A DNA stretch of 44,480 bases, the filler included, from Jimgerdemannia flammicorona (lineage: Eukaryota): the NCBI GenBank assembly GCA_003990765.1. It is 2 parts of 2 records of this genome, joined end to end, with 100 filler letters (N's around TTAATTAATTAA, not from the genome) between each part and the next. Parts side by side here need not be neighbours in the genome. Positions count along the whole stretch, not along the records: positions 1 to 22,196 come from RBNJ01001322.1; 1 more part is not named here. The stretch is one strand, 5' to 3'. Below the pieces are notes generated by a model that did no database searches, had not been told where the DNA came from, and saw only the letters and a list, made by a program, of their open reading frames with translations. This document shows positions 3,701-28,396 of the stretch, one piece after another. The stretch's first letter is position 1. Each line of letters starts with the position of its first letter. A program made the position numbers and the translations under genes.

Positions 3701-3964
3701 TGACTTCAATACTAGATTCGGGCTTTTTTTTTGTTAATAGTCGTGATTGGGCTAGTAGTAAATACTCACGTACTTTCACATTTTACCAGAGATTGAACCA
3801 TTTTGTATTAGAATATTCTACAAGAGCTCCTGCACAAGAGAATTTACGTAATACTGATACAAAACAAGCATAACTGCAAGTTTTACAAGAAATAAAACCC
3901 CTGTGCAACACTTGAGAATTGCAATAATGGGTACAAAAGAACCATGGCTTGGAGCAAGTCGCAA

Positions 3965-4430
3965 ACCATTGTCGCTATTTCGCTCTGTCGTCGTCATTTC
4001 AACCCATCATCATAACTTGGCCATTCGCCACCGTTCGGCGTTGTTTTCAGTCTATTGCTATCGGTTTGTTGACCGGCTTCATCTTTTTGCAGTTCGGTAT
4101 TGTTTTTACAGTCTGTCCCCGTTGTTTTGTAGTCTATTTGCACTTCGTAGTTGTTTTGCAGTTTGCCATGGTTTGGCAGTCCGTCATCATCCTTTCAGAT
4201 TTCAGTCCGCCATTGTAATTTTTACAGGCCATCACCATTTTGCAATCCATCGTCGTCATTGTTTTTGGTCAGTCATCGTCGTTTTGTAGTCCATCGTCGT
4301 TTTGCAGTCCATCGTTTTGCAGTCCATCGTCGTCGTTTTACAGTTTTGCGGTCCTTCATAATCGCTTTGAAGGCGTCGGTGTGTCGCCATTATCACGTCC
4401 CCTGGCAATTTCTGTCGTTTGCGTACGCTA
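3965..4430 (+). repeat. Degenerate ~21-bp GTCGTCGTTTTGCAGTC minisatellite, unit A (also 6515-6960 and 15985-16300; inverted at 8870-9365 and 18880-19333)
   Basis: Repeated TTTTGCAGTC and GTCGTC motifs that generate the spurious LQSVVV / FCSPSSS / FAVRRR ORFs. Confidence 0.8.
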
Positions 4431-4736
4431 CGTGGCCTTTCCTTCACCTTTGCTATCATTCCTCGCCCCCCTTTGGTAATTATTTCCCCATGCTGCAGGG
4501 CATATAAATGCCTGCGGAGTTGCACGTCGACATATTCTTATTTCTGTTTAGGACTGAATCATCCAGTAGGAACACCAAGATACCTAAGCAATAGAAAAAG
4601 AAAAACATATATAGTATATGGTGTTGCTTTATTCCTTGTCACGATGTGACATGAAATGCCAAATGGTAAGTCACGTAGCATATGAGTGTGCACCGTGCTT
4701 TCACACCATGGTCTTTGGGTCTGTGACGATGCATTC

Positions 4737-4772
<36 letters not shown>

Positions 4773-5112
4773 CAGACGAAAGCGGCGTCTGGCTATTGTA
4801 TTTGTGAGGGAAAATATATTAGAAAACAGAGTAAAGCACCAACCGTTCGCGTTACCTCAAAAAAAGAAAAAAAATACCAAGTAACTAATTCACACGATTG
4901 CATAGTGTAATATCTGCCACAGGAATGACATCAATTGATCATCTGAAACTCAAGTGGAAGATATTACCGTGGGAAGGTCGAACGGTATGGATATAGGCAT
5001 AGGTATGAAAATGAGAATATGCATATTGTTCGTAATGCTCTTTCTACTTTAAACGAATCATGCCACTAGCTAATCAACTTGTTGGAATGCATGTGTTTCA
5101 TAAATAGGATGC

Positions 5113-5604
5113 CTAATCGAAATCGTGGAACCTGAGCCGAAATCGAATCAAGCGCATATTGGGGTCCTCCTTCTCCGCACTTATGTCGTCGACACTAAAT
5201 CGGTCCCGATTAACCAATGCCACGAGCTCCAGCTTGAAATTTTGCAACGCCGCATCGGTCTGGGGGAAGCGCTCATCGACGAAGTCCCAGAGAATCGACC
5301 AGTCTGGCCGGCCACAGGCGCGGCGCTCAGCAAAGTTGAGTTTATTCAACATCTCCTCCCGGCCCCCGCCGCCCGCTGGGTCTTCTGCTGTGGCCGCCAC
5401 CAGCCTCTCCGGCCTCGAGTTCGGGAACCTCAGGTCAAGCACCACGAAGCTGCCCCAGTGTTTTTTCTTTCTTAGGACGGGGTCGTGGATCGCCTGAATG
5501 AAGCGCGCTATGTGCACACCGTACACCACCATCATATTGCTAAGGCGGAATATCTCATGTTTAGGAGGTGTGCGGGACCGACGGTTTGAGAATGTGTTAC
5601 CCAT
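5113..5604 (-). CDS. Hypothetical 163-aa protein with N-myristoylation motif (MGNTFS); array family member 1, intact
   Basis: Intronless ORF sharing YGVHIARFIQ, FVVLDLRFPNSxPERLVAATA, WDFVDERF and DPNMRLIR blocks with the 17224-17745 paralog. Confidence 0.75.
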   Translation of the reverse strand: MGNTFSNRRSRTPPKHEIFRLSNMMVVYGVHIARFIQAIHDPVLRKKKHWGSFVVLDLRFPNSRPERLVAATAEDPAGGGGREEMLNKLNFAERRACGRPDWSILWDFVDERFPQTDAALQNFKLELVALVNRDRFSVDDISAEKEDPNMRLIRFRLRFHDFD

Positions 5605-5733
5605 ATTAGATTCGGTAAAAATGGGGAATCTAATTTGTTTTATTTATTACAGACCGAGATTGTTTGGATCTGGTTGTGTAACCCCGATGATTTACGCTTC
5701 AGTCATTAAAATTTGGTACATTAAAAGACTACA

Positions 5734-5783
<50 letters not shown>

Positions 5784-7550
5784 AAATAGCTAGTGAAGGG
5801 CGCTTCCTTCCATGATTTTCTATTGTTCGGCGTCTTCCTTTATGGCTATGGCGTTTCTTTGATAAATAAAACTATGAGTCAGGGAAAATAGAGTTCGCCT
5901 AGAAAGCACATCACGGAGAAACAGTCTGTATAATAGTATTCTACAGCCAAACCCGACCCGACTTGACCCTGTTGACCAGACTTGAAACCTAGCAATTTAT
6001 TTAATTTGATCGTGCGGAGTTTTATAATGATTTGATTCCTCGAGTTGCCCCTATTAAATTAAAATTCAAACGTCAGCGAGGGCGTTTTATCCTCCTGAAC
6101 GGTAGTGGGCCGACCTTTTAGAGAAATAAAACGGACGAAAAAAAATTGCGATTTCTTGCGTGATGATCTCTTTTAATTGCTATAGCGACCCTTTGAGATA
6201 GGTGCCAAAAAGACAACACAAGAGCAATAGGACTACAAAAATTCGGGTCCCGACTTGAAAGATTCCGAAATATATTTGGGAATTCTCGCCCTATTTGTCA
6301 ATTTAAACCTAGCTGGAGGGGCACATCAAAACACAATGCCATGCCATAGAAGAGAAATTTACCACATTTTGTACCAGAATATTCATACAAGAGCCCCTGC
6401 ACAAGGAAATTTACATAAGACCGATGCAAGTGAAGCACAACTGCAAGTTTGTATATACCAGAAATAAAGCCGCTGTACAACACTTGAGAATTGCGATTTA
6501 GCAAGTTGCAAACCATTGTCGTTATTTCGCTCTGTCGTCGTCATTTCGAATAATCGTAAATTTGCCATCCGTCACCGTTCGGCGTTGCTTTGCAGTCTGT
6601 GCTGTCGGTCGTATTCCATCTTCATCCTTTTGCAGTCTGTCGTCGTTTTGCAGTTCGGCTTTTTTTTTTTTTTTGCAGCTTATCATAGTTTGGCAGTCCT
6701 CAGAACGTCACTTTACAGGCCGTCACCACGTCATTGTTTTGTCGTCATTTTACAGTCCGTCATCGTCGTTTTTCATCCGTCGTTTTGCATTCCATCGCCA
6801 TTTTGCAGTCCATCGTTGTCGTTTTAGAATTCAGTATTGTTTTCGCAGTCTATCCACTGGTTGTTTTGCAGTCCGTCATCCTTGTTTTGCAGGCGTTGGT
6901 GTATGTCGCCACCATCATTCCTTGACAATGTCCGTCGTTTGCATACGCTATGTCGCTTTCTTCTTAACCTTTTCCATCATTCCTTGACTCCTTTTTGGTA
7001 ATTTTTTCCCTATGCTGCAGAACATAGAAATTCCTGCGGATTTGCAGATCGACATATCCTTATTTCCGTTTAGGATCTGCAACAGGACTGAAGCATCTAG
7101 TAGGGACACCAAGATACCTAAACAATAGAAAAATAAAAATATATAGTATAGTGTTGACTTCATTCCTAGTCATTATTTCATGATTTTCATAGCTCTCTTC
7201 ATTAAATGCTAACATATATCACGTAGCCTATGAATGTACACCGTGATTTCACACCGCGATCCTTCCCAAATGAAAAGAGGTAGACGAAACCGGAATCTGC
7301 TTACATTGTTTCCCACTAAGAGAAAAATTTATTAGAAAGCACACATGTCAGCAGATACGACCAGTGCTTTTCGTGAACTCCGCCAACTGTTCGCGCTACC
7401 ACGAAATGTATCTACAGCGAGTTGCATAGTGTAATATCTGCCTCAAGTGGAAGATATTAGCACGGAAAGGACGAACGGTTTGGATATAATCATAGGCAGA
7501 GAAATGAAAGTAGTGTATATTGTTTGTAATGCCATTTGTACTTCAAAACG

Positions 7551-8018
7551 CTATTCGAAATCGTGGACTCGAAGCCGAAAGCAAATCAAGCGCATATTGG
7601 GCCCCCGCCTCTGTACTAATGCCGTCCACACTGAGCCGGCCCCTATTCACCATTGCCACGAGCTCCAGCTTGAGATTTTCCAACTCCGCCTCGGTCTGGT
7701 GCGCTCATCGACGAAACCCCAGAAGATTGACCAGGCCGGGCGGCCGCAGCCACGGCGCTCGACAAAGTTGAGTTTATTCAACATACCCTTCCGATTCTTT
7801 CTTTGGCCGTGGCCCACCAGCCTCTCCGACTTCGAGTTCGGGAACCGAAGGTCGAGCACCACGAGGCCTCCCCCAAAGTTTTTTCTTCACTAGGGGGTGG
7901 TGGATCGCCTGAATGAAGCGCGTTATGTGCACACCGTACACCTCCATCATAAGGCATCTTCAGGAGGTATGCAGGACCGACGGTTTGAGGCACGAAGGCG
8001 AGAAGATGTGTTGCCCAT
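7551..8018 (-). pseudogene. Array family member 2, frameshifted (starts MGNTSS)
   Basis: Early frameshift and stop. VVLDLRFPNSKSERLV and WGFVDER are retained, and the homologous stop codon is at 7551. Confidence 0.8.
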
Positions 8019-8449
8019 GTTGGATTCAGTATGATTGTGGAATTATTATTATTATTATTATTATTAAAGAGCAGGCCGAGAGGGTCCGTATATTTATTGG
8101 ATCAGACTATGGACTTCTATAATGTAGACTGCTTAAGCCATTAAATCAGATACGTGAAATTTCAATAAATTATAATAATAATTATCAATACAGCGGAGGG
8201 AGTTCGTGCATTATATTCTTTAGTCCGGCCTCTTCCTTTAATCACTAGGGCGACCCTTTGAAAAATGGGGGCCAAAAGAGATAACACAAGGAAAAATAGA
8301 ACTATGAGGTCAAGGAAAAGCCAGGAGAGCCGAGTCACTCAAACGTATACTCGTAGAAAAAGTATATAATAGTGTTCGCAGCCAAACACGACCCGACTTG
8401 ACCCGAGAGTGGGAATAAATTCGCGGAGTCATACCCCAGATCAAATCGC

Positions 8450-8515
8450 GATTTGGCGATTTGGCGATTTGACAATTTGAAAATTTGACGATTTGACGAT
8501 TTTGGCGATTTGATG
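8450..8515 (+). repeat. 8-bp degenerate tandem repeat (GATTTGGC/GATTTGAC)
   Basis: Read directly. Confidence 0.75.
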
Positions 8516-9498
8516 CATTGAGGATTTGAGAGGGGCGCACAATCCAAATGTCATGCCATACAAGAGAATTGCCCGAGGGTTAGCTATTTTGTACCAGAAT
8601 ATTCATGCATAAGAGACTTTATAAGGCCGAGAGTATTGTAGAGAAGTTGAGAACCCTTGTACAAAACTGCAAATGCAGTTAAAGGATACGGAGAGCCATG
8701 AAAATCGTGAGAAATGAAGTCAACACAATATACTATACATTTTTTACCCTATTGTTTAAATATCTTCAATCCATTTGCCGATCCTATACAGTGTCGACAC
8801 GCCACTCCGCAGGCATTTCTATGCTCCGCAGCATGATGCTAAAGAAGGAAGAAAGCGTAAACGAAGGAACGTGATGTTTGCACACGCCGACGCCTGATGC
8901 TGGACTGCAAATAAAGACGAACTGCAAAATGTGACGGCCTGCAAAATGACAACGGACTAAAATGACGACGGCGAACTGCGAACTGCAAAACGGCGGATTG
9001 CAAACAATGAAGAGCCGCTAAACAATGACGACACGGACTAAAATGTCGACGGCAAACTGCAAAACAACTTGTAAACAATAAACAATAATAATGAACTACA
9101 AATAATGACGGCAGACTGCAAAACAACGGGGGCATACTGCGAAACAGCGGGGACAGACTGCAAAACAACAGAAAAACAACCGGAATAGACTGCAAAACAA
9201 CAGGAAACAACGGGGACAGACTGCAAAACAACGGAGACAGACTGCAAAACAACGGAGACAGACTGCAAAACAACGGGGACAGACTGCGAAAACAATGCCA
9301 AAATATAAACGATGACGATGGACTGCAAAACAATGATGACGGGTTGCAAAACAACGACGGCGGTCAACTGTTCGTGCTCCTTCGAAAAAAATGCCGAGTA
9401 TTAATTTACATCGAGTTGCATAGTTTAATATTTGACATAATCATATCGGAATAACATAAATTATGCGAGCGATTCTGGGTTCATATATTATTGACATA

Positions 9499-10853
9499 CA
9501 GTGGGTCCCAAAACCGGTATTTTAATTATTTTAAATACAAATAAAATATAGATATATGCCATATTATAATATATTGTAGCCTTATGTCAAAGGTATCCAC
9601 AATTTTATTGAATTAAGATTCATTTACACTCTTTGTCCCGTGGATGCATGAAATTTTTATGGTTCTTTCAATACCCCCATACAATTTATTCTGCCGAAAT
9701 CCCCCCTTTTTAAAAAATAATGAAGAAAATCACCGTAGACGTTCACAACAACGTCATCAGTATGCTGAATTCGGGCGCATCGACACGAAAAATCGCTGAA
9801 CAGATGGCGTTGGCAAAACATCCGTCATCCGTATTAGAAAGACATTGCAACGACATTATCTTGTCCAAAGGGGATACTTTCAGCTCGCGATAAATCATCA
9901 GGTGACGAGCGGTAAGGTGGATACCGCCCCAATGGCTGCAAAACGGCTTCAAGAAGATGGCAAAGCCAATGCCAGTGCGGAAAGGGTGCGTCGGCCCCTG
10001 AAAGAAACCGGTTTGAAAGCCGCCGTGAAGCAAAAGAAACCAAGATTGCTACCCCGGCATGTTAAGGCTCGATACAAATTCGCCTGCAAGCGCAAGACTG
10101 GACGGTAGATGACTGGAAACGCATCGTAATCTCGGTTTGGGTCTGACGGACGACAATGGGTATGGAAAACAAAGGGCGGACCTATCAAAGAGAATCACGT
10201 TACACCGACGGTAAAATTCGGAGGCGCCGGATATGCATGCAAGATCGACGGAACTATGGATGCGGAGCTCTACAAGAACATCCTCGACGATGAATTGAAG
10301 GAATCTATTGATTATTTTAAGATCGATCGAAAACGGATGATATTTCAACAAGACAATGATCCAAAACATACCTTGCATATCGCGAAGAAATGGTTCAAAA
10401 ACCACTCTATTCGTCTTTTAGACTGGCTGGCTCAGTCTCCCGACCTAAACACAATCGAACACCTGTGGGCGCATCTCAACAGTCAGCTCGATGCATATGA
10501 GAACACCCCAAGGGGATACATGAGCTTTGGGAGCGGGTGGAGGATGAATGGAATGCAATTCCAGCCCAAGTTTGTGCGGATTTAATCGAGAGCATGCCGG
10601 GACGCCTTTTGGCAGTGTATAAGGCCAAAGGAGGCTACGTGAAGTATTAAAACGGTACGGCCACAAAGCTGGTCCAATGCGCCGCCGTTTTTAAGGATTT
10701 TTTTAAAGGTGAAATAAATATTAAATTCAATAAAATTAGTATTCTTGGATAGGGCTACAATATATTATAATATGGCATATATCTATATTTTATTTGTATT
10801 TAAAATAATTAAAATAGAAAATTTAATAAAATGTTGGACCGGTTTTGGGACTG
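9499..10853 (+). mobile_element. Tc1/mariner (DD34E) DNA transposon, defective
   Basis: TA flanks both ends. TIRs of more than 100 bp start CAGT(GGGT)CCCAAAACCGGT and carry indels. A transposase relic lies inside. Confidence 0.92.
9720..10650 (+). pseudogene. Tc1 transposase pseudogene
   Basis: FQQDNDPKHT...QSPDLNTIEHLW with 34 residues between D and E; C-terminus GGYVKY*; several frameshifts; the first catalytic WSDE motif is deleted between DDWKRIVI and RFGSDGRQWVW. Confidence 0.9.
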
Positions 10854-11117
10854 TATGATGCTTACAGTGTGAGTCTCATAAGAACATAGATATTTTGGTA
10901 TAATACTCCGACTCGATCATATATTGTGCATCTTCTAGCTTATGGTATATACCGCTCAATACATTGGATTAGTTACACATCGGAAGCACATGAAGACCTA
11001 AGTGGAAGATATTTGCACAGGAAGATCAAATTGTTCGTAGTGATCTTTCTCCTTTTAAAAGAATCATGTCCTGGCTAATTGACTCGTTAGAATGCATGTA
11101 TTCCATATATAAAACGT

Positions 11118-11518
11118 CTATTCGAAGTCGTGGAATTGGAGCTGAAAGCGAATTAAGCGCATGTTCGGGTCCTTCGAAGGCCAACCGAAGGGTCCGTCGC
11201 CGTAACGATGTGGTCCACTTTGTCCAGTTCCAGGAAGTCGCGGGTGCTGCGCTCCACGGAATTTTATTCATTGTTTCCTACTATCCGCGGGGCCCTTTGC
11301 CGTGGCCACCAATAGCCTCTCCGGCTCCTAGTTCGAGAACTGCAAGTCAAGCACCACCGAGCTGCCCCAGCGTATCCGGTTCCTCACCAGGACGCGTTCG
11401 TGAATCATCTGGATAAAGCACACTATGAGCACGCCGTACACCCCATCATAGAACTGGGGCGGAATATCTTCAGGAGGTGCGGGGTCGACGACCGACAGCG
11501 AGAGGAAATGTTGCCCAT
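11118..11518 (-). pseudogene. Array family member 3, frameshifted and internally deleted (starts MGNISS)
   Basis: WGSSVVLDLQFSN segment, with homologous start and stop contexts. Confidence 0.75.
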
Positions 11519-11573
11519 TTGGATTGGATGAAACGAAGGGAAGCCGCTGGGCTAAGATACACAAATAAAATAG

Positions 11574-11902
11574 CTATTCGAAGTCGCGAAATTGGGCCGA
11601 AGGCGAATCACCTTCGAAGGCCAGTACACCAGTACACCGAGGGATTTGTCTTTGTAGTGATGTGGACACACTGAGTTGGCCTATTCACCTTTGTCGAACT
11701 CCAATTTGTAATTATATTTCGAACTCCGTCTCGGTCTGGTCAAAGCGCTCGACGAAGTCCCAGATAATTTCTAGGTCACAGGTGCTGTGCTCTGCGGCGT
11801 CGAGCTTCCACATTCGTTTTCTATTCTTACTGTCCGCGGGACTCGTTGCTTTGACGGCCACCAGCCTCTCCGGCTCTGAGCTCGAGAAGCACCACGAAGC
11901 TG
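11574..11902 (-). pseudogene. Array family member 4, 3' half (5' half at 15090-15260)
   Basis: Homology to 17224-17580 stops at AGCACCACGAAGCTG, where the insertion begins. Confidence 0.8.
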
Positions 11903-12007
11903 CATCACGAAAATTTTGCAGATATCCCTTGAAAAAATATTTATGGTATTAGCACGCCCGCAACATCCCTTTTGTGAGATTCCACAGAAATTGATCGATA
12001 ATAAAGG

Positions 12008-12046
12008 GGCGGTGGACGGGCGGTGGACGGGCGGTGGACGGGCGGT
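12008..12046 (+). repeat. 11-bp tandem repeat (GGCGGTGGACG), about 3.5 copies
   Basis: Read directly. Confidence 0.85.
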
Positions 12047-12976
12047 GTGCAGTCCGAAATTGTTAGGTCTAGAACGATGCTCCACGGAAATCACTCTGTC
12101 TGTTCCTCTTAGAGCTTCGTAGTGGTTGTGTCTTGGGTCTTGGCTTTCACAGCAGTTGTGTTTGGATTTTTGTTGGATTCGGAAGTTTATACTCCATTTA
12201 TTTATTCAGTTCAAATTCTAAAAATATGTGTATATACACGCACTGCTATTCGCACTCAACAGCCCTCCACTGTGAACACAGACGCGGCCACGGAGAATTA
12301 CTGGATTCTCCTTCTCCTTCTCCACCGGCACCGCGGTTATCTGGCATACACGCTCACACAAGAGCTCGAATGGCTTTATACACCGCACATTGGAGGACTA
12401 CGGGTAAGTCGCTGAACAACACCATCTCCCTCTGTCTCCAATGCTGCCGCTATCTCACGTATGCACTCACACAACTCGAATAGCTGCTCGCTTACTAATA
12501 GACCGCCGTTCCACTGAGATTCCTGTCGACGTCTCAAACCGAATCTGTTGTGAATATGGTTTTGACAAAGAGCGGCACTTTGTTGATATTGCAAATAACG
12601 CGCTTTACGCGTAACTGATTACTGATGACGTAAACTGATGACGTATTACATTGATAACGAGTTGTAAATCCCAACAGAATCTCTCCGCAGGTCATTATAA
12701 CTGTAAGCCAAGACCTCTCTCTTCTCCTCTTTACTGAAATCAGAGATCCATCCCTTTCGCTGAAAATCGGTACCTCCACCAAGATCCATTCCTCCGCCGA
12801 GATCCGTCCCTTCACCAAGAATTTGGTATGTTTGAAAAATGCATGCGTGAGGAAACGTCTCGGGATCCGTGCAATTGGTTAGCTGGAAGGACAAGGCGAG
12901 AGATGTCAGGAGGAAAAAAAAGAAAAAGCGAACCCCGTATTAAATCGAGCGATCCTTCTTACTTATTCCGATTTAT

Positions 12977-14080
12977 ACAGAATTTAGCACAACGCCTTAT
13001 TCCAACTTGCACGGAATTCAGCACCACACCCACATGCCGACCCAGCACCACACCCATATTTGGAACCAGCACGGCAACAACTGTATTCTGACTTACACGA
13101 ATTTAGGACACACGTATTCCGACCCAGCACGATGTCCGTATTTCGACTCACAGCGCAACATCTATATTCTGACAAGGAACTCAGCACACGCCGATCCTGC
13201 CCGACTTACTGTATTCCAACTTACAGGGAATTCGGAACGACACCCACCCATATTCCGACTTCCAGAACGACGTCCATATTCTGACTTACAAGCAATTCAG
13301 CATGTCACCCATATTCCGATCCCGCTCGACCCCCCGTATTCCGACTTCTCGAATTCCAACTTATTGGGAATTCAGAACGACTCCCGTATTCCGACCCAGC
13401 ACGACGTCCATATTCTGACTTACACGGAATTCCGTCTAAGTCCGAATATAGACGTCGTGCTGAATTCTGTGTAAGTCGGAATATAGAAAATCAGAAATAC
13501 CATCGTGCTGGGTTGGAATATGGTGTCGTTCTTAATTCCTTGTACACCGGAATATGGGAAGTCAAAATACAGACTGGATGGCAATATGGGTATCATACTG
13601 AATTCCGTGCAAGTCAGAATATACTGGGTCAGAATAAAGGTGTTGTCCTGAATTCGGAATACAGGCTGGATGAGAATACGGGTGTCATGCTATAAGTCGG
13701 AATGGGCGTCGTGCTGGGTGGAAATATGGGTGTCGTTCATAATTCTCTGTACGGCGGAATTTGGGAAGTCGGAATACAAGCTAGAAGGGAATACAGGTGT
13801 CGTGCTGTAAGTCGGAATGGGCGTCATGCTGGGTCGGAATACGGGTGTCGTTTTAATTCCTTGTATGGCAGAATATTGGAAGTCAGAATACAGGCTGGAT
13901 GGGAATATGGGTGTTGTGCTGAATTCAGCACGACACCCGTTTCCCATCTACCCTGTATTCTGACTTCTCATATTCCGTCGTACAAGGATTTAAAGACGAA
14001 ACCCATTCCGACTTACAGTATGACACCAGCCTGTATTTCGATTTTCCGCCGTACAGGAAACTAGGGACGACACACGTATT
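12977..14080. repeat. Foldback satellite built from TATTCCGACTTACACGGAATTCAGCACGAC / TATTCCGACCCAGCACGAC modules
   Basis: Forward modules run to about 13430, reverse-complement modules from 13432 to 13925, and forward again after the GTGCTGAATTCAGCAC palindrome. Confidence 0.8.
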
Positions 14081-14934
14081 ATGATCCAGTCACGCTACGA
14101 AAATTGGCAGGACACCCTAATTCCCTTTGTCTGTCATCTGTCGTCCATCATCTGTCATCATCGTCATCGTTGGTCCGCACTTGGTCCTCATTCTGTGCTT
14201 AGTCGTCTGTCATCTGTTGTCCATCGTCTGCCGTCATCATCATCACCGGTCTGCGCTTGGTCATCGTTAAACATTATTTCTGCACTTAGTCACCTTTCAT
14301 GTATCGTTTATCGTATGTCATTATCGTCATCACTGGTCTGCGCTTGGTGTTGTCCTGTGCTTAGTCATCGTTCTGGACTTAGTCTTCATTCATGGCCACC
14401 ATCGTTCTGCGTTCATTGCTCATCGTCTATCATCTGTCATCATCTGTCATCTGTCATGTTGTCTTATATTTCATTATTATTTTTATTTCTAGTAATCTTA
14501 TAATTACTTTAGTATTCTATAATAACAAAAAATACAACCCTAATGTACATAATAAAACTATATGCTGATAGAATTAATACATTGTGGATAATCAAACTGA
14601 CTATTAGCCTTAAGTTCTGAATTTTTGTGAGGAAGTACTGAGTTCCAATTGCCTGTTGCAGCAGAGTCCAGATATTGCTTTCAGGTTCTTGTATGAATGA
14701 AAGTGCCATATTTGTATCCCAAGTTGATCAGGCTTGAAATTATTAACAAGTCAGGTCTGAGGGTTTTGTGATAAGAATACTGCTTTATTCTTGTGTTTGG
14801 GGAAAGCAGAGCTGAGGTTTCAATACACTTAGTACAAAGAGTATTTATATATATTTGAGGCCATGACTAAATATGATACACTAGGTATGTCCATATACAG
14901 TTATACTACTTTGGGCAACTATGACTACTAGTCA

Positions 14935-15038
14935 GAAATTCCATAGGAATTTCTATAAGAATTTCCATAGGAATTTCCATAGGAATTTCTATAAGAATTT
15001 CCATAGGAATTTCCATAGGAATTTCTGTCAGAAATTCC
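14935..15038 (+). repeat. 12-bp subterminal tandem repeat (GAATTTCCATAG) of the CMC-like element
   Basis: About 8 copies with C>T and G>A variants; generates the spurious (EIPM)n ORF. Confidence 0.85.
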
Positions 15039-15089
15039 AGTGGCTTTGTAGGTATGTAACGATTCGTTACATCTAAAATATTTGTGATG

Positions 15090-15260
15090 TGCCCCAGCGT
15101 TTTCGGTTCTTCACCAGGACCTGGTCGTGGATTATCTAGGAGGAGCACAAAATAAACAAACATTTCACGTCCATCACAAAGCCAAGGCGCGATATATCAA
15201 CTTCAGGAGGTGTGCGGGACCGACGTTTTAAGCACGAAGTCAGGAGAATTTGTTACCCAT
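15090..15260 (-). pseudogene. Array family member 4, 5' half (MGNKFS then TGA)
   Basis: Homologous to 5452-5604 and resumes exactly at the TSD. Confidence 0.75.
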
Positions 15261-17223
15261 GTTAGATTCTGTGAAAATGTGGAATCTATTGGGGGGTTTT
15301 TATTATTATTATTACAAACCAGACCAAGAGGTGTTGTAGTTATTGGATTGGGCTTTGTAACCCCCTATATTTTCTATGATTTAGGGTATATTCCAGAACG
15401 TCGACGATTTAGCCATTAAATTCGGTATATGAAATTCCAATAAACAAGATATCAAATAGCACAGCGAAGAGTGCTTCTTTCCTCCTGAACAATAGTATGT
15501 CGAGCGTTTGCAACTTCAAAGAGAAAATAGAACGGATGAAAAAACTCATGACGTTCTATAGTTCAGCCTCCTCCTTTAATTGCGGAAGCAAAAAGATAAC
15601 CCAAGGACAAAATAAAACCATGACGTAAGAAAAAATCAGGACCGAGAAAGAATATCACATATATACACTCGGAGAATCAGTAGGTAGTAGTGTTCCCGAC
15701 CCGACTTGACCCGTGAGTGGGGGGATATTTGATCAAACTTCAAACTTGGGCTTGGTTGGCCCGATTTGTCGATTTGATTTGACAGCAACCAAACTGGAGG
15801 AGCGAGTCAACCCAAAATGCCATGCTATACAAAAGAATTTTCATTCAAGAGCTCCTGCACAAGAAACGTTGTATAATACTGATACAAGACAAGAATACTG
15901 CAAGTTTGTATCCATAAATAAAGGCCTTGTACAACACTCGAGAACTCAGATTTTAGTTACATATGCAATTGAAACAACAGGTTGTCGTCATTTTGCTCTG
16001 TCATCGTCATTTCAAACCATCATCATTATCTTGTCATCATTGTCATTCGGCATCGTATTTCAGTCCATCGTCATCGTTTTGCAGTTCAGCATTATTATTA
16101 TTATTATTATTATTATTCGCAGTCTGACCCCGTTATTTTGCAGTCTGTCGTCATCGTTTTGCAGTCTATCGTCATCGTTTAACAGATCTTCGTTGTTTTG
16201 CAACTTCATGATGGTCATTTCAGCCCGTCGTCGTCATTGTTTTGAGTCCATCGTCGCCGTTTTGCAGTCCGTCATTAGGCGTCGGTGTTTAATGTCCATT
16301 GCGTACGCCACGTAACTTTTCCTCCCCCTTTGGTAATTATTTCCACATGCCACAGAGCATAGAAATCCTGCGGAGTTTCATAACGACGTATCCTTTTTTC
16401 CGTTTACGATTCGCAACAAGACTGCCAACAAGAATAAAAAAGAAATATACAGTATATGGCGTTGACTTCATTTTTCATAATTTTATGGCTCTCCGTATCT
16501 CATCATGAAATTCGAACATGGTAAGTCACATAGCCTATGAATGTATACTGTTCTTTCACCATGGCCCTTGAGTCCGTGGCGATGCATTCCTGAAAGAAAA
16601 AAAGGTAACGAAACCGGCGTCTGGCCATTGTGTTTTGCATGAACTCAGACGGTAAAGTTCCAACCGTTCGCGCTACCTCAAAAAAATGCCGAGTACTAAT
16701 TTACAGCGATGGTTGCATAGTGCAATATCTACCACAGGAATGACATTAATTGACACCTGAAGACTCAAGTGGAAGATATTAGCAAGGGAAAGTCGAAGGG
16801 TATGGATGTAGGCATAAGCATGAAATGAGAATAATGTATATTGTTCGTAATGTTCTTGCTTCTTTAAACTAATCATGCCGCTAGCTAATTAACTTGTTGG
16901 AATGCATGTGTTTCATAAATAAAATGTCTATGAATCCGAGGCGAAATCGAATCAAGTGCATATTTGCGGCGTATAACAAAGGTGAGCTTATTCGACATCT
17001 CCTTTCGGTTCCCACTGTCCGCTTTTCGGACTTATAATAAACGAACATTGCGTTCGTTGCATATATGAAACCCTAAAAGGAAATATTAGCATATGAACAT
17101 AAGCATAGGCAAGAAATGAATAAAAGTAGTGCAAATTGTTCGTAATGCTCTTTCTACTTTTAAACGAATCATGACAACAGCTAATTAACTTGTTATATAT
17201 CGCATGTTTCATAAATAAATTGT

Positions 17224-17745
17224 CTATTCGAGGTCGTGGAATTGAAGCTGAATCCGAATCAAGCGCATGTTGGGGTCTTTCGAAGGCCAGTACACCGAGG
17301 GATTGGTCTTTGTAATGAAGTTGTCCACGCTGATCCGGCCCCTATTCACCTTCTTCACGAGCTCCTGCTTGAAGCTTTCGAATTCCGTTCCAGTCTTTTC
17401 GAAGCGCTCATCGACGAAATCCCAGAAGATTTCCCAGTTCAGGGGGTCGTAGGCGCTGCGCTCGACGTTTTTCAATATCTCTTTTCGATTCTTGCTGTTG
17501 GCAGGATCTTTTGCCGTGGCCGCCACTAGTCTCTCCGGTTTCGAGTTAGGGAACCGCAAGTCAAGCACCACGAAGGTGCCCCAGCGTTTTTTCTTCACTA
17601 GGACGGCGTCGTGCATCACCTGAATGAAGCGCGCTATGTGCACTCCATACAGCTCCATCGTAGGGCTAAGGTGGAATGCCTCATCTTCAGGAAATGTGCG
17701 GCACCGACTTTTTGCGGCACCACGGCAGGAGAATATGTTGCCCAT
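17224..17745 (-). CDS. Hypothetical 173-aa protein with N-myristoylation motif and adjacent Cys (MGNIFSC); array family member 5, intact
   Basis: Intact intronless ORF, colinear paralog of 5113-5604. Confidence 0.75.
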   Translation of the reverse strand: MGNIFSCRGAAKSRCRTFPEDEAFHLSPTMELYGVHIARFIQVMHDAVLVKKKRWGTFVVLDLRFPNSKPERLVAATAKDPANSKNRKEILKNVERSAYDPLNWEIFWDFVDERFEKTGTEFESFKQELVKKVNRGRISVDNFITKTNPSVYWPSKDPNMRLIRIQLQFHDLE

Positions 17746-19740
17746 ATTGGATTCGGTAAAATTGTGGAATCTAAATTTTTAATTACAGAGCAGTGAGGGC
17801 TTGTATAGTAATTGGATCGGGCTGTCAAATTCTACGATATTATGTAGATATTCTAGATTATGGGCGCTTCAGCCATATAAATTAAAATTCAAACAGCACA
17901 GCGGAGGGTATTTCATTCCTCTAAACGATAGTAGGCCGACCGTTTACAACTCCAAAGAGAAAATAAAACGAATGAGTTCATGCATGACGATCTATAGTGC
18001 AGTTTGCTCCTTTAATCGCTATGGTGACCCTTTGAAAAATAGGAGCCAAAAAAGATAGCACAAGAAAAAAATAGAACTATGAGGTCAAGGAAAAGTTGGG
18101 AGAACTGAGTCCACTTAGACGTATACTCAGAGAACAAGTATATATATTAGTATTCCGACTTGCCCCGGTGCTTATGATCGACCATTCGCGGAGTTACATC
18201 TCGATTTGATTCTCAGGTTGCCCAATTTCTCGATGTGCCGATTTGACAAGGTCGCGTCAACCCCAAACGCCGGAATTGTACGTCATTTGCAACGGAATAT
18301 TCATGCACTAGCTAATTTATATAAGACATTGTACAACACTGCGATTTTAGTTACAGATGCAATCGAAACAACAGATGTAAAGAAACATGACTTGGAGCAA
18401 GTCGCAAACCATTGTCGTCATTGCTCTGTCACCGTTGAGCGGCCTCCCAACGGACGATGAGATCGGCCCTACGCCCTTCACTGTAAAATCATGAGCCTGG
18501 TAGAGGGTAACGAGCTGGTCGCGTGTCGGAGGGCTTGAAGTTCGGATAGGGAGGAGATCGTCGGTCGACGTGAGGTGGGTCGGGCATGGGGGCAGGAACT
18601 GGAGCGGGCAATGGAGGGGTAGGCAAACGGCCGCGTAGCCAGCGGGTAGGAGACATAGGTAAATGTGCGAAGACTCTAGGTCATGAATCGGAAGGTTACG
18701 AGTGGATTGGGCTTCATTAACGAGGTTGACATATTTATCTGTGAATCAAAGAATGGAGCGCCAATGAATTTCGTTGCGTGGAACGCTGTATATGTGGAAA
18801 TCTGCGACCTGTCTCGCGATAAAGTGAGACAAGCGACTGGTGTGTGAAGAGTGACAACGATGGCTGGTGAAGAGTGACAACGATGGCTGGTGACGGACTG
18901 CAAAAGGATGATAACAAACTGAAAATGACGAGGGCACAACAATGATGGACTGCAAAAGGATGATAACAAACTGAAAAATGACGAGGGCTGCACAACAATG
19001 ATGGACTGCAAAACGATGACGACGGACTGCAAAACGATGACGACGGACTGCAAAAGGATGAAAAATGACGAGGGCTGCACAAGAATGATGACGGACTGCA
19101 AAACGACGCACAAAATGATGACAGACTGAAATGACGAGACGGACTGCAAAATGATGACGACCGACTGAAATGACAGACTGCAAAACTATGACAACCTACA
19201 AACCGATTACAATGGACTGTAAAAACAGCGCCAGAACAATGCTAAGCTGAAAAATTACTGCAAAGCGAAGACGGACTGCAAGACAATACCGAACGACGAC
19301 GGAAGGCAAAACGATGATGACGGTTTGAAATGCAATTCCCCGGGTCCCTAACCTCCACGCCCTGAGGGGCCGGCGACATTGCCCTCATCAGACGATTCCT
19401 TCCCATCCTCTTCACCCGCCTCCAGGCATTTGCCCCACAATCTATTATACCCCTACCCGCACCAACAGCTCTTGCCTCGCCACCCTTCATATCCGAATCT
19501 GCACCAACGGCTCTCAGCTCCGCAACCCTTCATACCGGCAGCCTCTTCTTCCCTCGGCTTCACATCATCTTCCTCTTGGATTGCTACCTTCAACTCCCCC
19601 AGCGCCGCCGATATCGTCAGCCAGCCTAATGTCCCTAACCCTTCCGTCCCCCCTCGCCTAATGGTCAGTCTTCGTCGTCTTCTCCTTACATCTCTGACAC
19701 AGTACTTCGCCATAGTTGGGTCACTGGCCGAGTGGTTAGG

Positions 19741-19833
19741 GAACCCCTATTAACCGTTTTCACCAGCTCCAACTTGAATCTTTCGAACTCCACCTCGGTC
19801 TGGCCAAACCGGTTTTCGATGAAGTCCAAGAAG
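19741..19833 (-). pseudogene. Internal fragment of array family member 6
   Basis: CCCTATTAACC...AGCTCCAACTTGAA...GATGAAGTCCAAGAAG matches 17340-17430 and is truncated by insertions on both sides. Confidence 0.6.
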
Positions 19834-19838
19834 GTTAG

Positions 19839-22296: not shown

Positions 22297-23304
22297 AAAA
22301 AAAAAAAATACAATTGGTATAATAAAAATATACAATTGGTATATAATAAAATATAAATATATATATATATATATATAGCAAAAATATAAAAACATATAGT
22401 ATAATTATAATTTACATACAAATTGTGGCTTAGTACACTCACTTTGTAGTTTAGTACACTCCTAAACAACAGTTTTATGCATGACACATATTTTGAGGAA
22501 TGTGTCATTATTCCTTCAGAACTCTAGCTATATTGTCTACAGATATCCCTTATACTCTGGCTACTTGATTTGGAGTTAAACGTGATGTTATATTATAAAT
22601 TCTTCTTGCCCAAGTAAGAATCTTGTCTTTGTTCCGTAAATGTAGTGTAGATAGCTCTTCACAGAATTTCCTTCCAACTGTTATTTCTTTAGAATGCTGA
22701 GTAGCTAAATTGTCATCTTGCTCATCAGTTCAAAGTTTTTTTCCAAGCAAATGTCATGTACATAAAATTTCACCAGTCTGGGAACCATTATTGACTTAGT
22801 ATACTAGGTCTTGATAATTTCCAATAGGATCTTCTTCTTGTGGCTCAATTTGGTTTTGGGCCTTTTGAAGGGCTGCTCCAATATCTTGAGGGGTCACCAT
22901 TACTGTTATAATCTTTTGTTTAGTTGTCTGCTTTCTCTTCTTGATGGCAGCTCGATGAGGTGGTGGTCTCTCTTGTGATGCAGTAGGAGAAGGAGAGAAT
23001 TCAGTAATTCCAGTACAGAACATTGGACCTTTTCATGGAATATGAATTTCAGACCATATTGAGCTGCGAAGATGTACTTGTATAAGATCTAAGGCAATTT
23101 TGACCTTGTTTGGAAAGTCAGAGCAGTTGAGTCACTGCTCTGTCTGCTTCATCATTTTGAGTAATCTCCTACCTTTGTTTATACAGATAGCTACTTTAAG
23201 ACAGTGACTGTCCTTGATTGAAGGCTGCCCATGCCATCAAGAACAGGTTGAAGATTACAAATAGCCAATATTTTTCCGACTCAATGCTCTTTTCCAACTT
23301 CCTT

Positions 23305-26300
23305 CAATGTCTTGCCTCCAACATCGCCTCACCTCCAATATCTTGCCTCCAACATCGCCTCGCCTCCAATGCCTCACTGGAGGTGAGGCGACATTGGAGG
23401 TGAGGTGACATTGGAGGCGAGACATTGGAGGCAAGGTGACATTGGAGGCGAGGCAATGTTGGAGGTGAGGCGATGTTGAAGGCAAGGCGACGTTGGAGGT
23501 GAGGCAATATTACTTATCAACTGCTGTAAAATCTGATATTTTTTAATAGTATTTTAAGCCACTTAAGTTGCTCAAGCTACTTATTAACTGCTGGTTGAAA
23601 TCTTTAAATAAATTTATTTAAATAAGAAATTGGTTAAGTTACAATTTTCTGAGAGACATGATGATATGAATGATATTTCTTAACAGCATTTTCAGTATCA
23701 AGAAGTTTCCCATTTAGTTCCAATCCTGAATTGGTAAAAAACACATGACTAGGTGGTATATATCAAAACATGTAAAAACACACATCTTGCCCTCCAACGT
23801 CGCCTCCAACATTGCCTCGCCTCCAACATCCAACATCATCTCCAATGTCCAACATCGCCTCCAACCTCACTGCCAACATCACCTTATTGCCAATGTCACC
23901 TTGCCACTAATGTCGCCTCACTACCAACAGCTCTTGCTCTAGGTTTGAAATTTCTTTTTATTGGCACTCTATGGAGGGGGGAGCATCACCTTGTCACTCA
24001 TTCTGAAGCCTCAGCTCACTCTGATGCTCTTTTCCAACACCTGTCCATTTTAGTGTACCTCGCCTCCAACATTGACTCCAATGTTGCCTTGCCACCAACG
24101 TCACCTCACCATCAACATCACCTCGCCGCCAACATTGCCTTATCACCAATATCACCTCACCACCAACGTTGCCTCACCGCCAACATCACCTCACCACCAA
24201 CACCTTGTCTTGGGCCCTTGCTCTAGGTTTGGAATTTCTTTTTGTTGACATTCTATGGAGTGGGGAGCCTCACCTTGTCACCCATTCTGAAGCCTCAGCT
24301 CACTCCGATGCTCTTTTCCAACACCTGTCCATTTTATATCTATCATGATGCCAAAAACTATAAGTGATGCCAAAAACTATAAGTGATGCCAAAAACTATA
24401 AGTGATGCCAAAAACTATAAGTGATACCAAAAACTATAAGTGATGCCAAAAACTATAAGTGATGCCAAAAACTATAAGTGATACCAAAAACTATAAGTGA
24501 TGTCAAAAACTATAAGTGATGCCAAAACTATAAGTGATGCCAAAAACTATAAGTGATACCAAAAACTATAAGTGATTAAAACACATAAAACACATCTCTA
24601 ACATGCATCTTACTCTTTTCTAACCTCTAACATTATCTCCTCCAACACCTCGCCTTCAACGTCACCTCACCTCCAATGTCACCTCACCTCCAATGTTGCC
24701 TTACCTCCAATGCCTTGTCTTGGATCCTTGCCCATCAACGTCTTGTCTTAGGCCCTTGCTCTAGGGGGGAGCCTCACCTTGTCACCTGTTCTGAAGCCTC
24801 AGCTCACTCCAATGCTCTCTTTTCCAATACCTGTCCATTTTAGTGTACCTCTAACATTGCCTTGCTGCTAACATCACCTTGCCGCCAATATTGCCTTGCC
24901 ACCAGTATCGCCCCTCACCACCAATATCACCCCTCACTGCCAATATCACCTCACTGCCAACATCGCCTTGCCATCAATGCCTTGTCTTGGGCCCTTGCTC
25001 TAGGTTTGGAATTTCTTTTTGTTGGTGCTCGGGAGCCTCGCCTCGTCACCCATTCTGAAGCCTCAGCTCACTTTAATGCTCTTTTTCAATATCTGTCCAT
25101 AGTGTACCTCGCCTCCAATATCACCTCCAATGTTGCCTTGCCACTAACGTTGCCTCACCGCCAACACCTTGTCTTGGGCCCTTACTCTAGATTTGGAATT
25201 TCTTGTTGGCACTCTATGGAGGGGAGAGCCTTGCCTCATTACCCATTCTGAAGCCTCAGCTCACTCTAATGCTCTTTTCCAACACCTGTCCATTTTAGTA
25301 TACCTCATCTCCAATATCGTCTCCAATGTTGCCTCGCCACCAATGTTGCCTTGCTGCTAATGCCTTGTCTTGGGCCCTTGCTCTAGGTTTGGAATTTCTT
25401 TTTGTTGGCACTCAGGAGCCTTGTCTTATCACCTATTCTGAAGCCTCAGCTCACTCTGATGCTCTTTTCCAACACCTGTCCATTTTAGTGTACCTTGCCT
25501 CCAATGTCCCCTCACCACCAATATCACCTTGCTGCTAATGCCTTGTCTTGGGCCCTTGCTCTAGGTTTGGAATTTCTTTTTGTTGGCACTTGGGAGCCTC
25601 ACCTTGTCACCCATTCTGAAGCCTCAGCTTACTCCGATGCTCTTTTCCAACACCTGTCCATAGTGTACCTCACCTCCAACATCGCCTCCAACATTGCCTC
25701 ACCGCCAACGTTGCCTCGCTGCCAATGCCTTATCTTGGGCCCTTGCTCTAGGTTTGGAATTTCTTGTTGGCACTCTATAGAGGGGGGAGCCTTGCCTCAT
25801 CACCTGTTCTGAAGCCTCAGCTCACTCCAATGCTCTTTTCCAACACCTGTCCATTTTAGTGTACCTCATCTCCAATATCACCTCCAACGTCACCTCACCT
25901 CCAACATTGCCTCACCTCCAACATTGCCTTGCCTCTAATATTGCCTCACCTCCAACATTGCCTTGCCTCCAATATTGTCTTACCTCCAACGTTGCCTCAC
26001 CTCCAATATTACCTCACCTCCAATATCACCTCACCTCCAACATTGCCTCACCTCCAACATTGCCTCACCTCCAATGTTGCCTCACCTCCAATGTCGCCCT
26101 GCTTCAACGTTACCTTGCTTTCAACGTCAAATTATAATCCTTTGAAAAAACCTGATTCTTTACTTTTAAATAAATCTGCATTTACAACAGAACTTGCAGA
26201 TTATTATATTATATTAAGAGAATGGTGTATGAGGTGTGAACATGTTAAAGATACAATATCTTATTTTTCTCAATTTTCTTTTATTTTTAAAAAACATCCT

Positions 26301-26880
26301 GTAAGAATATAATTAATAAAGAACTGGTGCCGAAATTGCAGCTTGAAGCCTTAAGAACTGCTTGCCTCCAATGCCTCCAACATTGCCTCACTTCCAATGT
26401 TGCCTCATCTTCAATGTCACCTCACCTCCAATGTTGCCTTGCCTCCAATGTTGCCTCATCTCCAACATTGCCTCGCCTCCAATGCCTTGCCTCCAATGTC
26501 GCCTCGCCTCCAATGTTGCCTCGCCTCCAATGCCTCACCTCACCTCCAATGTTGCCTTGTCTCCAACATCGCCTTGCCTCTAACATCCTCCAACACCAAT
26601 GTTGCCTCACCTCCAACATTGCCTCGCCTCCAATGTTGCCTCACCTCCAACGTCGCCTCGCCTCCAACACCTTGTCTTGAGCTCTTGCTCTAGGTTTGGA
26701 ATTTTTTTTTTTTTTTTTTTGAAGGGTGGTGGAGGCGAGGCGACTTTGGAGATGATGTTAGAGGCGAGGTAATGTTGGACTTTTCATGTTCATTGTAGAA
26801 GGAGGTGATGTTGGAGGTGAGGTGACATTGGAGGTGAGGCGATATTGGAGGTAAGGTGACATTGGAGGTGAGGCAACATC
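23305..26880. repeat. Satellite of a 17-bp unit (consensus CCTCCAACGTCGCCTCG) with about 8 interspersed ~130-bp modules
   Basis: The module GGGCCCTTGCTCTAGGTTTGGAATTTC...TTCTGAAGCCTCAGCTCACTC...CCTGTCCATTTTAGTGTACC recurs at about 23930, 24210, 24750, 24990, 25175, 25370, 25550 and 25735. Orientation switches near 23377 and 26720. Confidence 0.85.
24346..24576 (+). repeat. 19-bp tandem repeat (TGATGCCAAAAACTATAAG), about 12 copies
   Basis: Near-perfect head-to-tail copies without spacers. Confidence 0.95.
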
Positions 26881-27619
26881 AGTAAACTTGGTCGAAAATT
26901 GTGTGTGGCTGGCTGACTTGAGCAGCAGCTTGAGTAACTTGAAACTGGCTTACAATTCATTACTTTTTAAAGCCAAATTTTGATTTTTTGAAATAGATTT
27001 AAGGCCGAAATTGTGACTAGTTTTAGTGCAAATACAAAAAATGATGATAATTGATATAAAAAACTATTTTACTATAATATTATGAACAATAATAAAAAAA
27101 ACTCTCTATTTGGTTAAACATGATAGAATTCTATAATAATATATGATTTTTTTAAATTTTTTATTAAGTAGAATATAAAGTTATAAGCAAAAGGTTGAGT
27201 ATAAGTACTGTGCACTATATATATATAAGCTTTTTATATACAAGTTACTTATAAAATTTCAATTTCTGATTTTTTTAAAAAAAATAAAAATAAATAAAAT
27301 GTTGACAGATTTTTTTTTTATTTTTATAAATTTATAATTAACTTTATGTATTATTCATATTTGCCTGCATTACGAACTAAGGGGTATCCCTGTGATGGTG
27401 GATCGTGCGTGTCATCGATTGTGAATGTCTTTTTTGCGCGTGTGTTGGTGTGCTGGAGTTCGTGCTCTTCACACACGATATGAAGGCAGTCGCAAATTTT
27501 ATCTTCTAAGCAAGATTGTCGATCAATCCAATCGCGGAAGTGGGTAACCCCTTATACGTCGGAGATAAAAGAGGGGGGCTGCGGGGGGTGACATAATTAC
27601 GATCACACATGATACAACA

Positions 27620-28230: not shown

Positions 28231-28396
28231 AATAATAAAACAAAATGGTCACGGCCTATTGGTTCAACAATACGAACATAATACAAACCTGGGCAAAAGA
28301 TATATTACTACATTAAATAATGTAATAGGCTACTACACATGGGTTGGATACATTTACCTCTATTCACCCAACCTGAATCTGAACCAACTCTTAATC

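What the first reader, a model, noticed from the sequence alone, without database searches (positions are those of the whole stretch)
3785..19835. Tandem birth-and-death array of an unrecognised small myristoylated-protein family
At least six copies of a ~165-175 aa intronless gene lie in the same orientation in ~2-2.6 kb units. Every copy with a 5' end keeps MGNxxS (MGNTFS, MGNTSS, MGNISS, MGNKFS, MGNIFSC), the established N-myristoyltransferase consensus. A basic stretch follows, and one copy has a Cys that could be palmitoylated. The two intact copies keep core blocks in frame while diverging in loops, which suggests purifying selection. I recognise no domain. Inference: a fast-turnover, membrane-anchored effector, immunity or decoy family; this is the best candidate for an undescribed system in the window.
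Basis: partly seen in the sequence, partly recalled or inferred. Interest (0 to 1): 0.8.

Follow-up and report, generated by a model that had tools for sequence, protein, structure and literature searches.

The report
Orphan bait domain fused into NLRs
A fungal genome holds over 100 copies of a small, predicted lipid-anchored protein for which no relative was found elsewhere, and its core domain is fused in frame behind the repeat ends of four other genes (three recognisably immune-receptor-like, one of those now broken), so it likely works as a bait for attackers, as integrated decoys do in plants.

Summary
The array is real: seven copies on the minus strand (two intact, three broken, two remnants). 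It is one cluster of a genome-wide family: 152 matches, on 89 contigs in the 150 rows listed, and 110 near-full open frames. Gly2 is kept in 103 of 107 free copies and Ser6 in 100, both with synonymous variation; dN/dS is about 0.3-0.55. No homologue or fold match was found outside this fungal genome, although the core folds confidently (pLDDT 86).

New here: the same domain, without its Met-Gly anchor, is the C-terminal domain of a complete NB-ARC-TPR receptor gene (787 aa) and of a complete 19-exon SAM-LRR gene (890 aa). It also follows an ankyrin repeat on a short contig and ends a broken NB-ARC-TPR-ankyrin gene. The sister receptors checked lack it.

This is the architecture of plant NLRs with integrated decoys, such as small HMA/HIPP proteins. 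Best reading (0.55): a membrane-anchored target or bait family recruited repeatedly into immune receptors. Myristoylation, expression, ligand and immune function are untested. Selection on the fused ankyrin pair is not significant, and accidental fusion in a receptor-rich neighbourhood remains possible.

The parts
5113..5604 (-). Intact family copy c1, 163 aa, starts MGNTFS
   Evidence: omega vs c2 0.52, p=0.007
17224..17745 (-). Intact family copy c2, 173 aa, starts MGNIFSC
   Evidence: folded
7551..8018 (-). Broken full-length copy (MGNTSS), several frameshifting indels
11118..11518 (-). Broken copy (MGNISS), frameshifts, in-frame stop and central deletions
15090..15260 (-). 5' half of a broken copy (MGNKFS, stop at codon 7); reference nt 1-169
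11574..11903 (-). 3' half of the same broken copy; reference nt 167-507
11904..15089 (.). About 3.2 kb of dispersed repeats that split that copy (includes a ~440 nt high-copy repeat near 14550-14990)
16926..17085 (-). Weak remnant of a further copy
19744..19832 (-). Remnant of a further copy (about 30 codons of the core)
3790..4730 (.). Downstream spacer of the duplication unit with a 21-nt minisatellite; repeated at 6365-7255 and 15834-16583. Its long matches elsewhere lie on family-bearing contigs
8690..9360 (.). Inverted copy of part of that spacer (a second inverted piece lies at about 18880-19320)
9518..10816 (+). Broken Tc1/mariner-like DNA transposon with terminal inverted repeats, inserted in one unit
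   Evidence: arms 9518-9585 / 10749-10816, 99%; DDE_3 E=2e-6, just under the curated cut-off

Best explanation
The array is one cluster of a fungal family of more than 100 small genes whose products are predicted to be N-myristoylated and membrane-anchored, and whose core domain is fused in frame behind the repeats of NLR-like receptor genes, where it likely acts as an integrated decoy or sensor. Shown: family size, constraint on Gly2/Ser6 and on the core, and four fusions without the Met-Gly start (two complete gene models, one cut by a contig end, one broken). Inferred: (1) myristate plus a basic patch holds the free proteins at a membrane; (2) they are targets or baits of molecules from a fungal antagonist (bacterium, virus, mycoparasite) or of non-self alleles, which would drive duplication, decay and sequence exchange; (3) receptors that captured a copy would sense the same attack directly; (4) the NB-ARC receptor, which has no N-terminal effector domain, would signal through its short Gly/Asn-rich N-terminus.
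For: Family: 152 matches in the own genome, nearly the same set with two other queries; 110 near-full open frames. Gly2 in 103 of 107 free copies with all four Gly codons used; Ser6 in 100 of 107 with four Ser codons; positions 4 and 5 keep their commonest residue in only 55 and 57 of 107. Median net charge of residues 2-20 is +4. Omega: median 0.31 over 3570 pairs uncorrected; pooled 0.54 over 34 independent sister pairs with kappa 4. Fusions: C872, NB-ARC + DUF7779 + TPR + domain in one frame, gene model 787 aa with one GT-AG intron and no internal stop. C8560, 19 exons, all 18 introns GT-AG, 890 aa, LRR exons running into the domain. C29095, ankyrin repeat, then the former 5' leader read in frame, with both the start codon and the Gly codon changed and the rest open. 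C5108, broken NB-ARC-TPR-ankyrin gene ending in the domain. Control: none of 19 other family frames with long extensions has a Pfam domain. Sisters lack the domain: 0 of 11 SAM-LRR paralogues whose last repeat was in view, and 3 NB-ARC paralogues continue otherwise. The C8560 domain vs its nearest free copies: omega 0.37-0.42, p<=0.002. The C872 and C29095 domains differ at 15.3% of sites but their 3' flanks at 3.3%; in 18 of 19 free pairs with an alignable 3' flank the flank is at least as diverged as the coding part.
Against: No ligand, partner, expression or lipidation was shown. The fused pair C872/C29095 gives omega 0.77, p=0.21 after transition correction (0.51, p=0.013 uncorrected), and a neutral frame would survive that divergence without a stop 6% of the time by substitutions alone. 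Omega for C8560 mixes time as a free gene with time as a fusion. AU tests do not reject one origin of the fused domains (p=0.26 for four, 0.74 for three), so repeated capture rests on the different partners and junctions, not on the tree. The family lies near such receptors more often than chance (3 of 44 other SAM-LRR contigs carry family copies; about 0.3 expected by my hand estimate from contig lengths), which also makes accidental deletion-fusions likelier. One fusion is dead and the C872 ankyrin is cut after half a repeat. No clear positive selection: one site of 154 reaches p=0.003 uncorrected. Mosaic flanks also occur among free copies (two pairs share near-identical upstream DNA). The junctions come from a fragmented assembly and were not checked with reads.
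Confidence: 0.55

Rival explanations
1. The free genes have a membrane function unrelated to immunity, and the fusions are tolerated accidents: deletions in a rearranging, receptor-rich compartment joined a receptor gene to a neighbouring copy.
For: Co-location with receptor genes; a free copy lies 1.2 kb upstream of the C872 receptor; the C872 ankyrin is truncated; C5108 is dead; the fused pair omega is not significantly below 1; the window itself shows insertions, inversions and splits.
Against: Two fusions are complete stop-free gene models. All four recognised partners are repeat proteins and no other Pfam partner appeared in 19 extended frames. Met-Gly is absent in all four fusions but Gly2 in only 4 of 107 free copies. 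In C29095 both codons are point-mutated while 174 codons stay open.
Confidence: 0.2
2. The domain is a signalling adaptor or executioner of the NLR pathway rather than a bait: free myristoylated copies relay receptor activation to the membrane, and fusion hard-wires receptor and adaptor.
For: The C872 receptor lacks a known N-terminal effector domain; conserved surface-type residues (D, Q, E, W, P) are under strong constraint in the family.
Against: The fusions sit at the sensor (C-terminal repeat) end and lose the anchor an executioner would need. They are rare singletons among paralogues. More than 100 diverging copies is more than an adaptor needs (inference).
Confidence: 0.12
3. A selfish or allorecognition family (poison-antidote or het-like) that spreads by duplication and gene conversion; the receptor fusions are suppressors or allele-specific recognisers.
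For: High copy number, many dead copies, mixed orientation, mosaic flanks; deep divergence of the C872/C29095 domain between near-identical flanks resembles balanced alleles.
Against: One short ORF, with no second product or overlapping frame seen. No allelic counterpart of the C872 receptor body was found (best 81%). The resemblance to drive and het genes is recalled, not tested.
Confidence: 0.1
4. The ORF is cargo or an internal gene of a transposable element, and the array is a nest of such elements.
For: Dispersed multicopy distribution; a repeated ~2.4 kb unit in the window.
Against: Flanks of the window copies are shared by at most about 13 of ~80 loci in any 100-nt bin, with no common termini. 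Long matches to the spacer lie on family contigs only. No transposase or RT domain in any member. Closest copies differ by at least 2%.
Confidence: 0.03

Closest known systems
Plant small HMA / HIPP proteins and NLRs with an integrated HMA domain (rice Pik-1, RGA5); PMC12164592, passages read
   Same: A large, expanded family of small lipid-anchored proteins whose domain is also built into NLR receptors; the anchor is absent from the integrated copy (last point: shown here, recalled for plants).
   Different: Fungal; N-terminal myristoylation motif instead of a C-terminal isoprenylation motif; no HMA match; no known effector; integration also into an LRR protein without an NB domain.
Putative integrated PKinase decoy in Sordariales NLRs (Bonometti et al., PMC12258605; passages and section 20 read)
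   Same: A C-terminal non-canonical domain on a fungal NLR, homologous to a stand-alone host protein, proposed as a decoy.
   Different: There: one integration from a single-copy conserved kinase (CHK2/PRD-4) in ascomycetes. Here: an orphan domain from a >100-copy birth-and-death family, in two unrelated receptor types with different junctions.
Fungal guard pairs NLR + SNARE (PLP-1/SEC-9, Bcvic1/Bcvic2; bioRxiv 10.1101/2022.04.03.486892, passages read)
   Same: An NLR linked to a polymorphic membrane-associated host protein thought to be targeted by microbial effectors.
   Different: There the guardee is a separate, conserved SNARE; here it is an orphan family and the domain is fused into the receptor.
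Acylated plant guardees/decoys RIN4 (NOI) and PBS1 (recalled, not looked up)
   Same: Lipid-anchored small host proteins monitored by NLRs; NOI also occurs as an integrated domain.
   Different: No sequence or fold match seen; those families are far smaller and conserved across plants.

Membership tests
N-myristoylated proteins | Gly at position 2 | tested here: met
   103 of 107 free copies, all four Gly codons used
N-myristoylated proteins | Ser/Thr at position 6 (consensus recalled) | tested here: met
   Ser 100, Thr 2 of 107
N-myristoylated proteins | Second membrane signal (basic patch or palmitoyl Cys) | tested here: met
   Median net charge +4 in residues 2-20; Cys at 3-10 in only 16 of 84
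N-myristoylated proteins | Myristate attached in vivo, G2-dependent membrane binding | not testable with these tools
   needs labelling and G2A localisation
NLR with integrated domain (NLR-ID) | Nucleotide-binding domain plus C-terminal repeats | tested here: met
   C872: PF00931 E=7.5e-9, TPR_12 E=3e-13; C5108 likewise but broken. C8560 has LRRs but no NB domain in its gene model, so it is NLR-like only
NLR with integrated domain (NLR-ID) | Extra domain in the same reading frame, homologous to a stand-alone host protein | tested here: met
   Gene models of 787 and 890 aa; domains 74-80% identical to free copies
NLR with integrated domain (NLR-ID) | Domain absent from sister receptors (non-canonical) | tested here: met
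   0 of 11 SAM-LRR paralogues with the last repeat in view (15 fetched of 44 other contigs, 4 cut off); C5308, C2656 and C767 lack it
NLR with integrated domain (NLR-ID) | Several independent integrations | tested here: inconclusive
   Two unrelated partner types and four junctions; the tree needs 3 changes and places the C5108 domain with the window copies (UFBoot 99), but AU p=0.26 and 0.74
NLR with integrated domain (NLR-ID) | Integrated domain binds or is modified by a pathogen effector and triggers defence | not testable with these tools
   no ligand known
Small HMA / HIPP | C-terminal CaaX isoprenylation motif | tested here: not met
   Members end in ...QFHDFE-like sequences
Small HMA / HIPP | HMA fold | tested here: inconclusive
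   No Pfam match in 82 members; no HMA entry among the fold-search rows
Transposon-internal ORF | Shared element termini around the copies | tested here: not met
Transposon-internal ORF | Transposase, RT or gag domain | tested here: not met
   No such Pfam family in 82 members; only sub-0.9 hAT-like Atlas leads at low recognition
Secreted small effector of symbiotic fungi | N-terminal signal peptide | not testable with these tools
   No predictor at hand; by inspection the N-terminus is basic, without a hydrophobic stretch

The most novel reading that the evidence does not exclude
A fungus has independently evolved the plant integrated-decoy system around a protein fold of its own: a >100-member myristoylated bait family under arms-race turnover, captured at least three times by two unrelated receptor classes (NB-ARC-TPR-ankyrin and SAM-LRR), with the captured domain swapped or balanced between haplotypes to change what the receptor recognises.
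Probability: 0.35. Interest if true: 0.88.

Novelty: new variant of a known kind. Interest (0 to 1): 0.72.

Why it matters
Integrated decoys in fungal NLRs are described as not well documented (PMC5658179, passages) and the best-worked case is one putative kinase capture (PMC12258605). A repeatedly captured orphan domain, with more than 100 free donors in the same genome, gives a direct handle on an open question: what fungal NLRs actually sense. The integrated domain can be used as bait to fish for the antagonist molecule, as in plants. It also supplies a confidently modelled alpha/beta domain without a found structural match, and shows that such capture may extend to LRR receptors without a nucleotide-binding domain.

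Tried and rejected
Homologue searches, all blank: 5.8-billion-protein word search with c2, with the 82-member alignment at near lengths and at longer lengths; phmmer of c1 against 1.84 billion representatives, 0 hits (single sequence, not a profile); metagenome, viral and prokaryote contigs; ESM Atlas, no usable hit for c2 and only sub-0.9 leads for a consensus-like member; Pfam, best E=0.001 to DUF2264 in 12 of 82 members, taken as noise; PDB sequences, best E=0.02 to an uncharacterised 98-aa streptococcal protein, a helical stretch only. Caveat: a control protein from this window was also absent from the collection, so the own genome and near relatives may simply not be served; 'orphan' means no match in these collections.

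Expression: no RNA holder listed. Contigs of two runs whose kind is only guessed cover c2 and its flanks, some at about 95-97% identity, and many paralogues; this cannot show transcription.

Promoter: a TATA-like word lies within 150 nt upstream in 47 of 84 copies vs 12-21 of about 80 in control windows, but in 34 of 81 on the reverse strand, and the strict word is missing before all five window ATGs: weak support only.

An apparent frameshift in C8560 proved to be an LRR relic inside an intron. No allelic partner of the C872 receptor body was found. Branch-specific dN/dS was not obtained; only pairwise values are given. No complex prediction was run, as no binding partner is claimed.

Literature: eight searches showed no description of this family in their listings; (myristoylat + fungal NLR + fungi + decoy) returned 0 papers. 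Subscription papers and supplements were not seen.
Full report
1. Observation. Two ORFs are intact (5113-5604, 163 aa; 17224-17745, 173 aa; 56% identical). Aligning the rest to an intact relative gives three broken copies and two remnants. One broken copy is a single gene split at about codon 56 by 3.2 kb of dispersed repeats. A Tc1-like element (9518-10816) and two inverted spacer pieces disturb the ~2.4 kb period. The array lies on contig C1322 of G000; the window beyond the N gap at 22.2 kb lies off that contig. The genome is fungal by its velvet genes; that it is an early-diverging lineage is my inference.

2. The family. A search with c2 gave 152 matches from 150 scored of 272 candidates, on 89 contigs in the 150 rows listed (contigs counted by hand). 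A divergent member and a fused member returned nearly the same set. From the 110 loci fetched first I recovered 110 distinct near-full open frames, the window's two included. Of 107 free copies, 103 keep Gly2 (codons GGC 73, GGT 18, GGA 8, GGG 4) and 100 keep Ser6 (TCT 67, TCG 15, TCC 12, TCA 6), while positions 4 and 5 vary freely. This is protein-level selection on the two positions that define the myristoylation consensus (consensus recalled; PMC3668125 passages support only the roles of Gly2 and position 6 in a plant kinase). A basic patch follows (median +4); Cys is present in only 16 of 84. dN/dS is 0.31 uncorrected (median of 3570 pairs) and 0.54 pooled over 34 independent sister pairs after correcting for kappa 4; c1 vs c2 gives 0.52, p=0.007. 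No site stands out after multiple testing. Flanks are not shared family-wide, so the unit is not a mobile element. The core folds as an alpha/beta domain with pLDDT 85.7 and pTM 0.83. Sequence and fold searches found no match (see Tried and rejected).

3. The fusions. Seven of the 110 frames lack Met-Gly at the start. Four have an altered N-terminus. Three run on from upstream coding sequence. (a) C872: NB-ARC, DUF7779, TPR, half an ankyrin-like repeat, then the domain; the gene model is 787 aa with one 52-nt GT-AG intron and no internal stop. (b) C8560: a weak SAM match, a coiled region, a middle domain without Pfam match (I recall it as COR-like; this label comes from no call), six 84-nt LRR exons and a last exon in which a seventh LRR runs into the domain. 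The hand-built model, guided by paralogue alignments, has 19 exons, 18 GT-AG introns, 890 aa and no internal stop. (c) C29095: an ankyrin repeat at the contig end, then the former 5' leader read in frame; the ATG and the Gly codon are both point-mutated and the remaining 174 codons are open. A fourth case came from the NB-ARC search: C5108, a broken NB-ARC-TPR-ankyrin gene whose last ankyrin repeat leads into the domain. Its domain groups with the window's two copies (UFBoot 99), so the window's own subfamily has been a donor. Controls: none of 19 other family frames with long extensions has a Pfam domain. Of 15 SAM-LRR paralogues fetched (44 other contigs listed), none shows the domain; 11 had their last repeat in view and 4 were cut off. 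The NB-ARC paralogues C5308, C2656 and C767 end in ankyrin repeats or go on to LRRs.

4. How old and how constrained. The C872 and C29095 domains are sisters (UFBoot 100), differ at 70 of 459 sites, and yet share a 3' flank differing at 13 of 393 sites that is found nowhere else at that level. In 18 of 19 free pairs with at least 240 nt of alignable 3' flank, the flank is as diverged as the coding part or more. So the fused domain has been exchanged or kept as deep alleles between near-identical flanks. Two free pairs show a similar mosaic upstream, so exchange is not unique to the fusions, and no allelic partner of the receptor body was found. Omega for this pair is 0.77, not significantly below 1; for C8560 against its nearest free copies it is 0.37-0.42, but that includes time before fusion. 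AU tests do not reject one origin of the fused domains (p=0.26 and 0.74). At least two captures follow from the two unrelated partner types; a third is likely from the C5108 placement. The family also lies near these receptors: 3 of 44 other SAM-LRR contigs carry copies, against about 0.3 expected by my hand estimate (about 1.5 of 231 Mb). This fits a shared immune neighbourhood but also raises the chance of accidental fusion.

5. Mechanism. Shown: a large constrained family with a conserved anchor motif, and its domain, without the anchor, at the sensor end of NLR-like genes. Inferred: the free proteins sit at a membrane and are targets or baits of antagonist molecules; receptors that captured a copy sense the same attack; the C872 receptor, lacking a known effector domain, may signal through a Gly/Asn-rich N-terminus shared by its paralogues (likeness to amyloid signalling motifs is recalled and untested). 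Confidence 0.55. Rivals: tolerated accident 0.2, adaptor/executioner 0.12, selfish or allorecognition family 0.1, transposon ORF 0.03.

6. Comparison with what is known. It works like plant small HMA/HIPP proteins, which are expanded, lipid-anchored, effector-bound and built into NLRs (PMC12164592, passages), but it is not a member: no CaaX motif and no HMA match. In fungi, integrated decoys are called not well documented (PMC5658179, passages). The worked case is one putative capture of a CHK2-like kinase (PMC12258605, passages and section 20). The NLR-SNARE pairs are guard systems with separate genes (bioRxiv 10.1101/2022.04.03.486892, passages). The amyloid-motif survey has no occurrence of 'myristoyl' or 'Mucoromycota' (bioRxiv 10.1101/2022.03.16.484565, term search and passages). 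Eight literature searches showed no description of this family in their listings; supplements and subscription papers were not seen. Earlier notes of this scan describe NLR-like and one-LRR-per-exon genes in this genome but nothing on this family.

7. Verdict. Real and, as far as these collections show, undescribed: a new variant of a known kind (NLR integrated domain), with an orphan donor family. Interest 0.72. The architecture is shown at assembly level; the immune function is inferred.

Noticed in passing
L091:3420-3544 (G000:C872) and paralogues L128, L150, L151, L114, L116: The NB-ARC clade has no known N-terminal effector domain, only a short Gly/Asn-rich N-terminus that recalls fungal amyloid signalling motifs; the likeness is recalled and untested.
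   Followed up: partly
L093 (G000:C8560) and 44 other contigs: A family of SAM - coiled region - unnamed middle domain - one-LRR-per-exon genes without an NB domain, up to about 20 LRR exons each in the loci fetched; the middle domain has no Pfam match.
   Followed up: partly
L112, L113 (G000:C2656, C767): NB-ARC-TPR-ankyrin genes that continue into LRR exons.
   Followed up: no
window 9518-10816: Broken Tc1/mariner-like element with ~110-nt terminal inverted repeats inside one unit.
   Followed up: partly
window 14550-14990: A ~440-nt repeat with very many copies in the genome (934 candidates for the wider query), possibly a solo LTR.
   Followed up: no
window 28360-31240 (beyond the N gap): Inverted duplicate pair of protein-kinase genes; one copy has Pkinase E=1e-19, the other looks decayed.
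   Followed up: no
window 32558-34078: Intronless 506-aa BTB-SPRY gene.
   Followed up: no
window 23300-26900: Long 17-nt-unit satellite with inverted blocks and a 19-nt array at 24327-24621.
   Followed up: no
L114 and L116 (G000:C15844, C24194): Two NB-ARC contigs 92-98% identical that end at the same place, suggesting haplotypes or a recent duplicate; either could be the missing upstream part of the C29095 fusion.
   Followed up: no
L036:8447, L058:873, L074:~4420, L089:~1440: Four free copies have lost Gly2 but keep an open core, possibly soluble variants.
   Followed up: no
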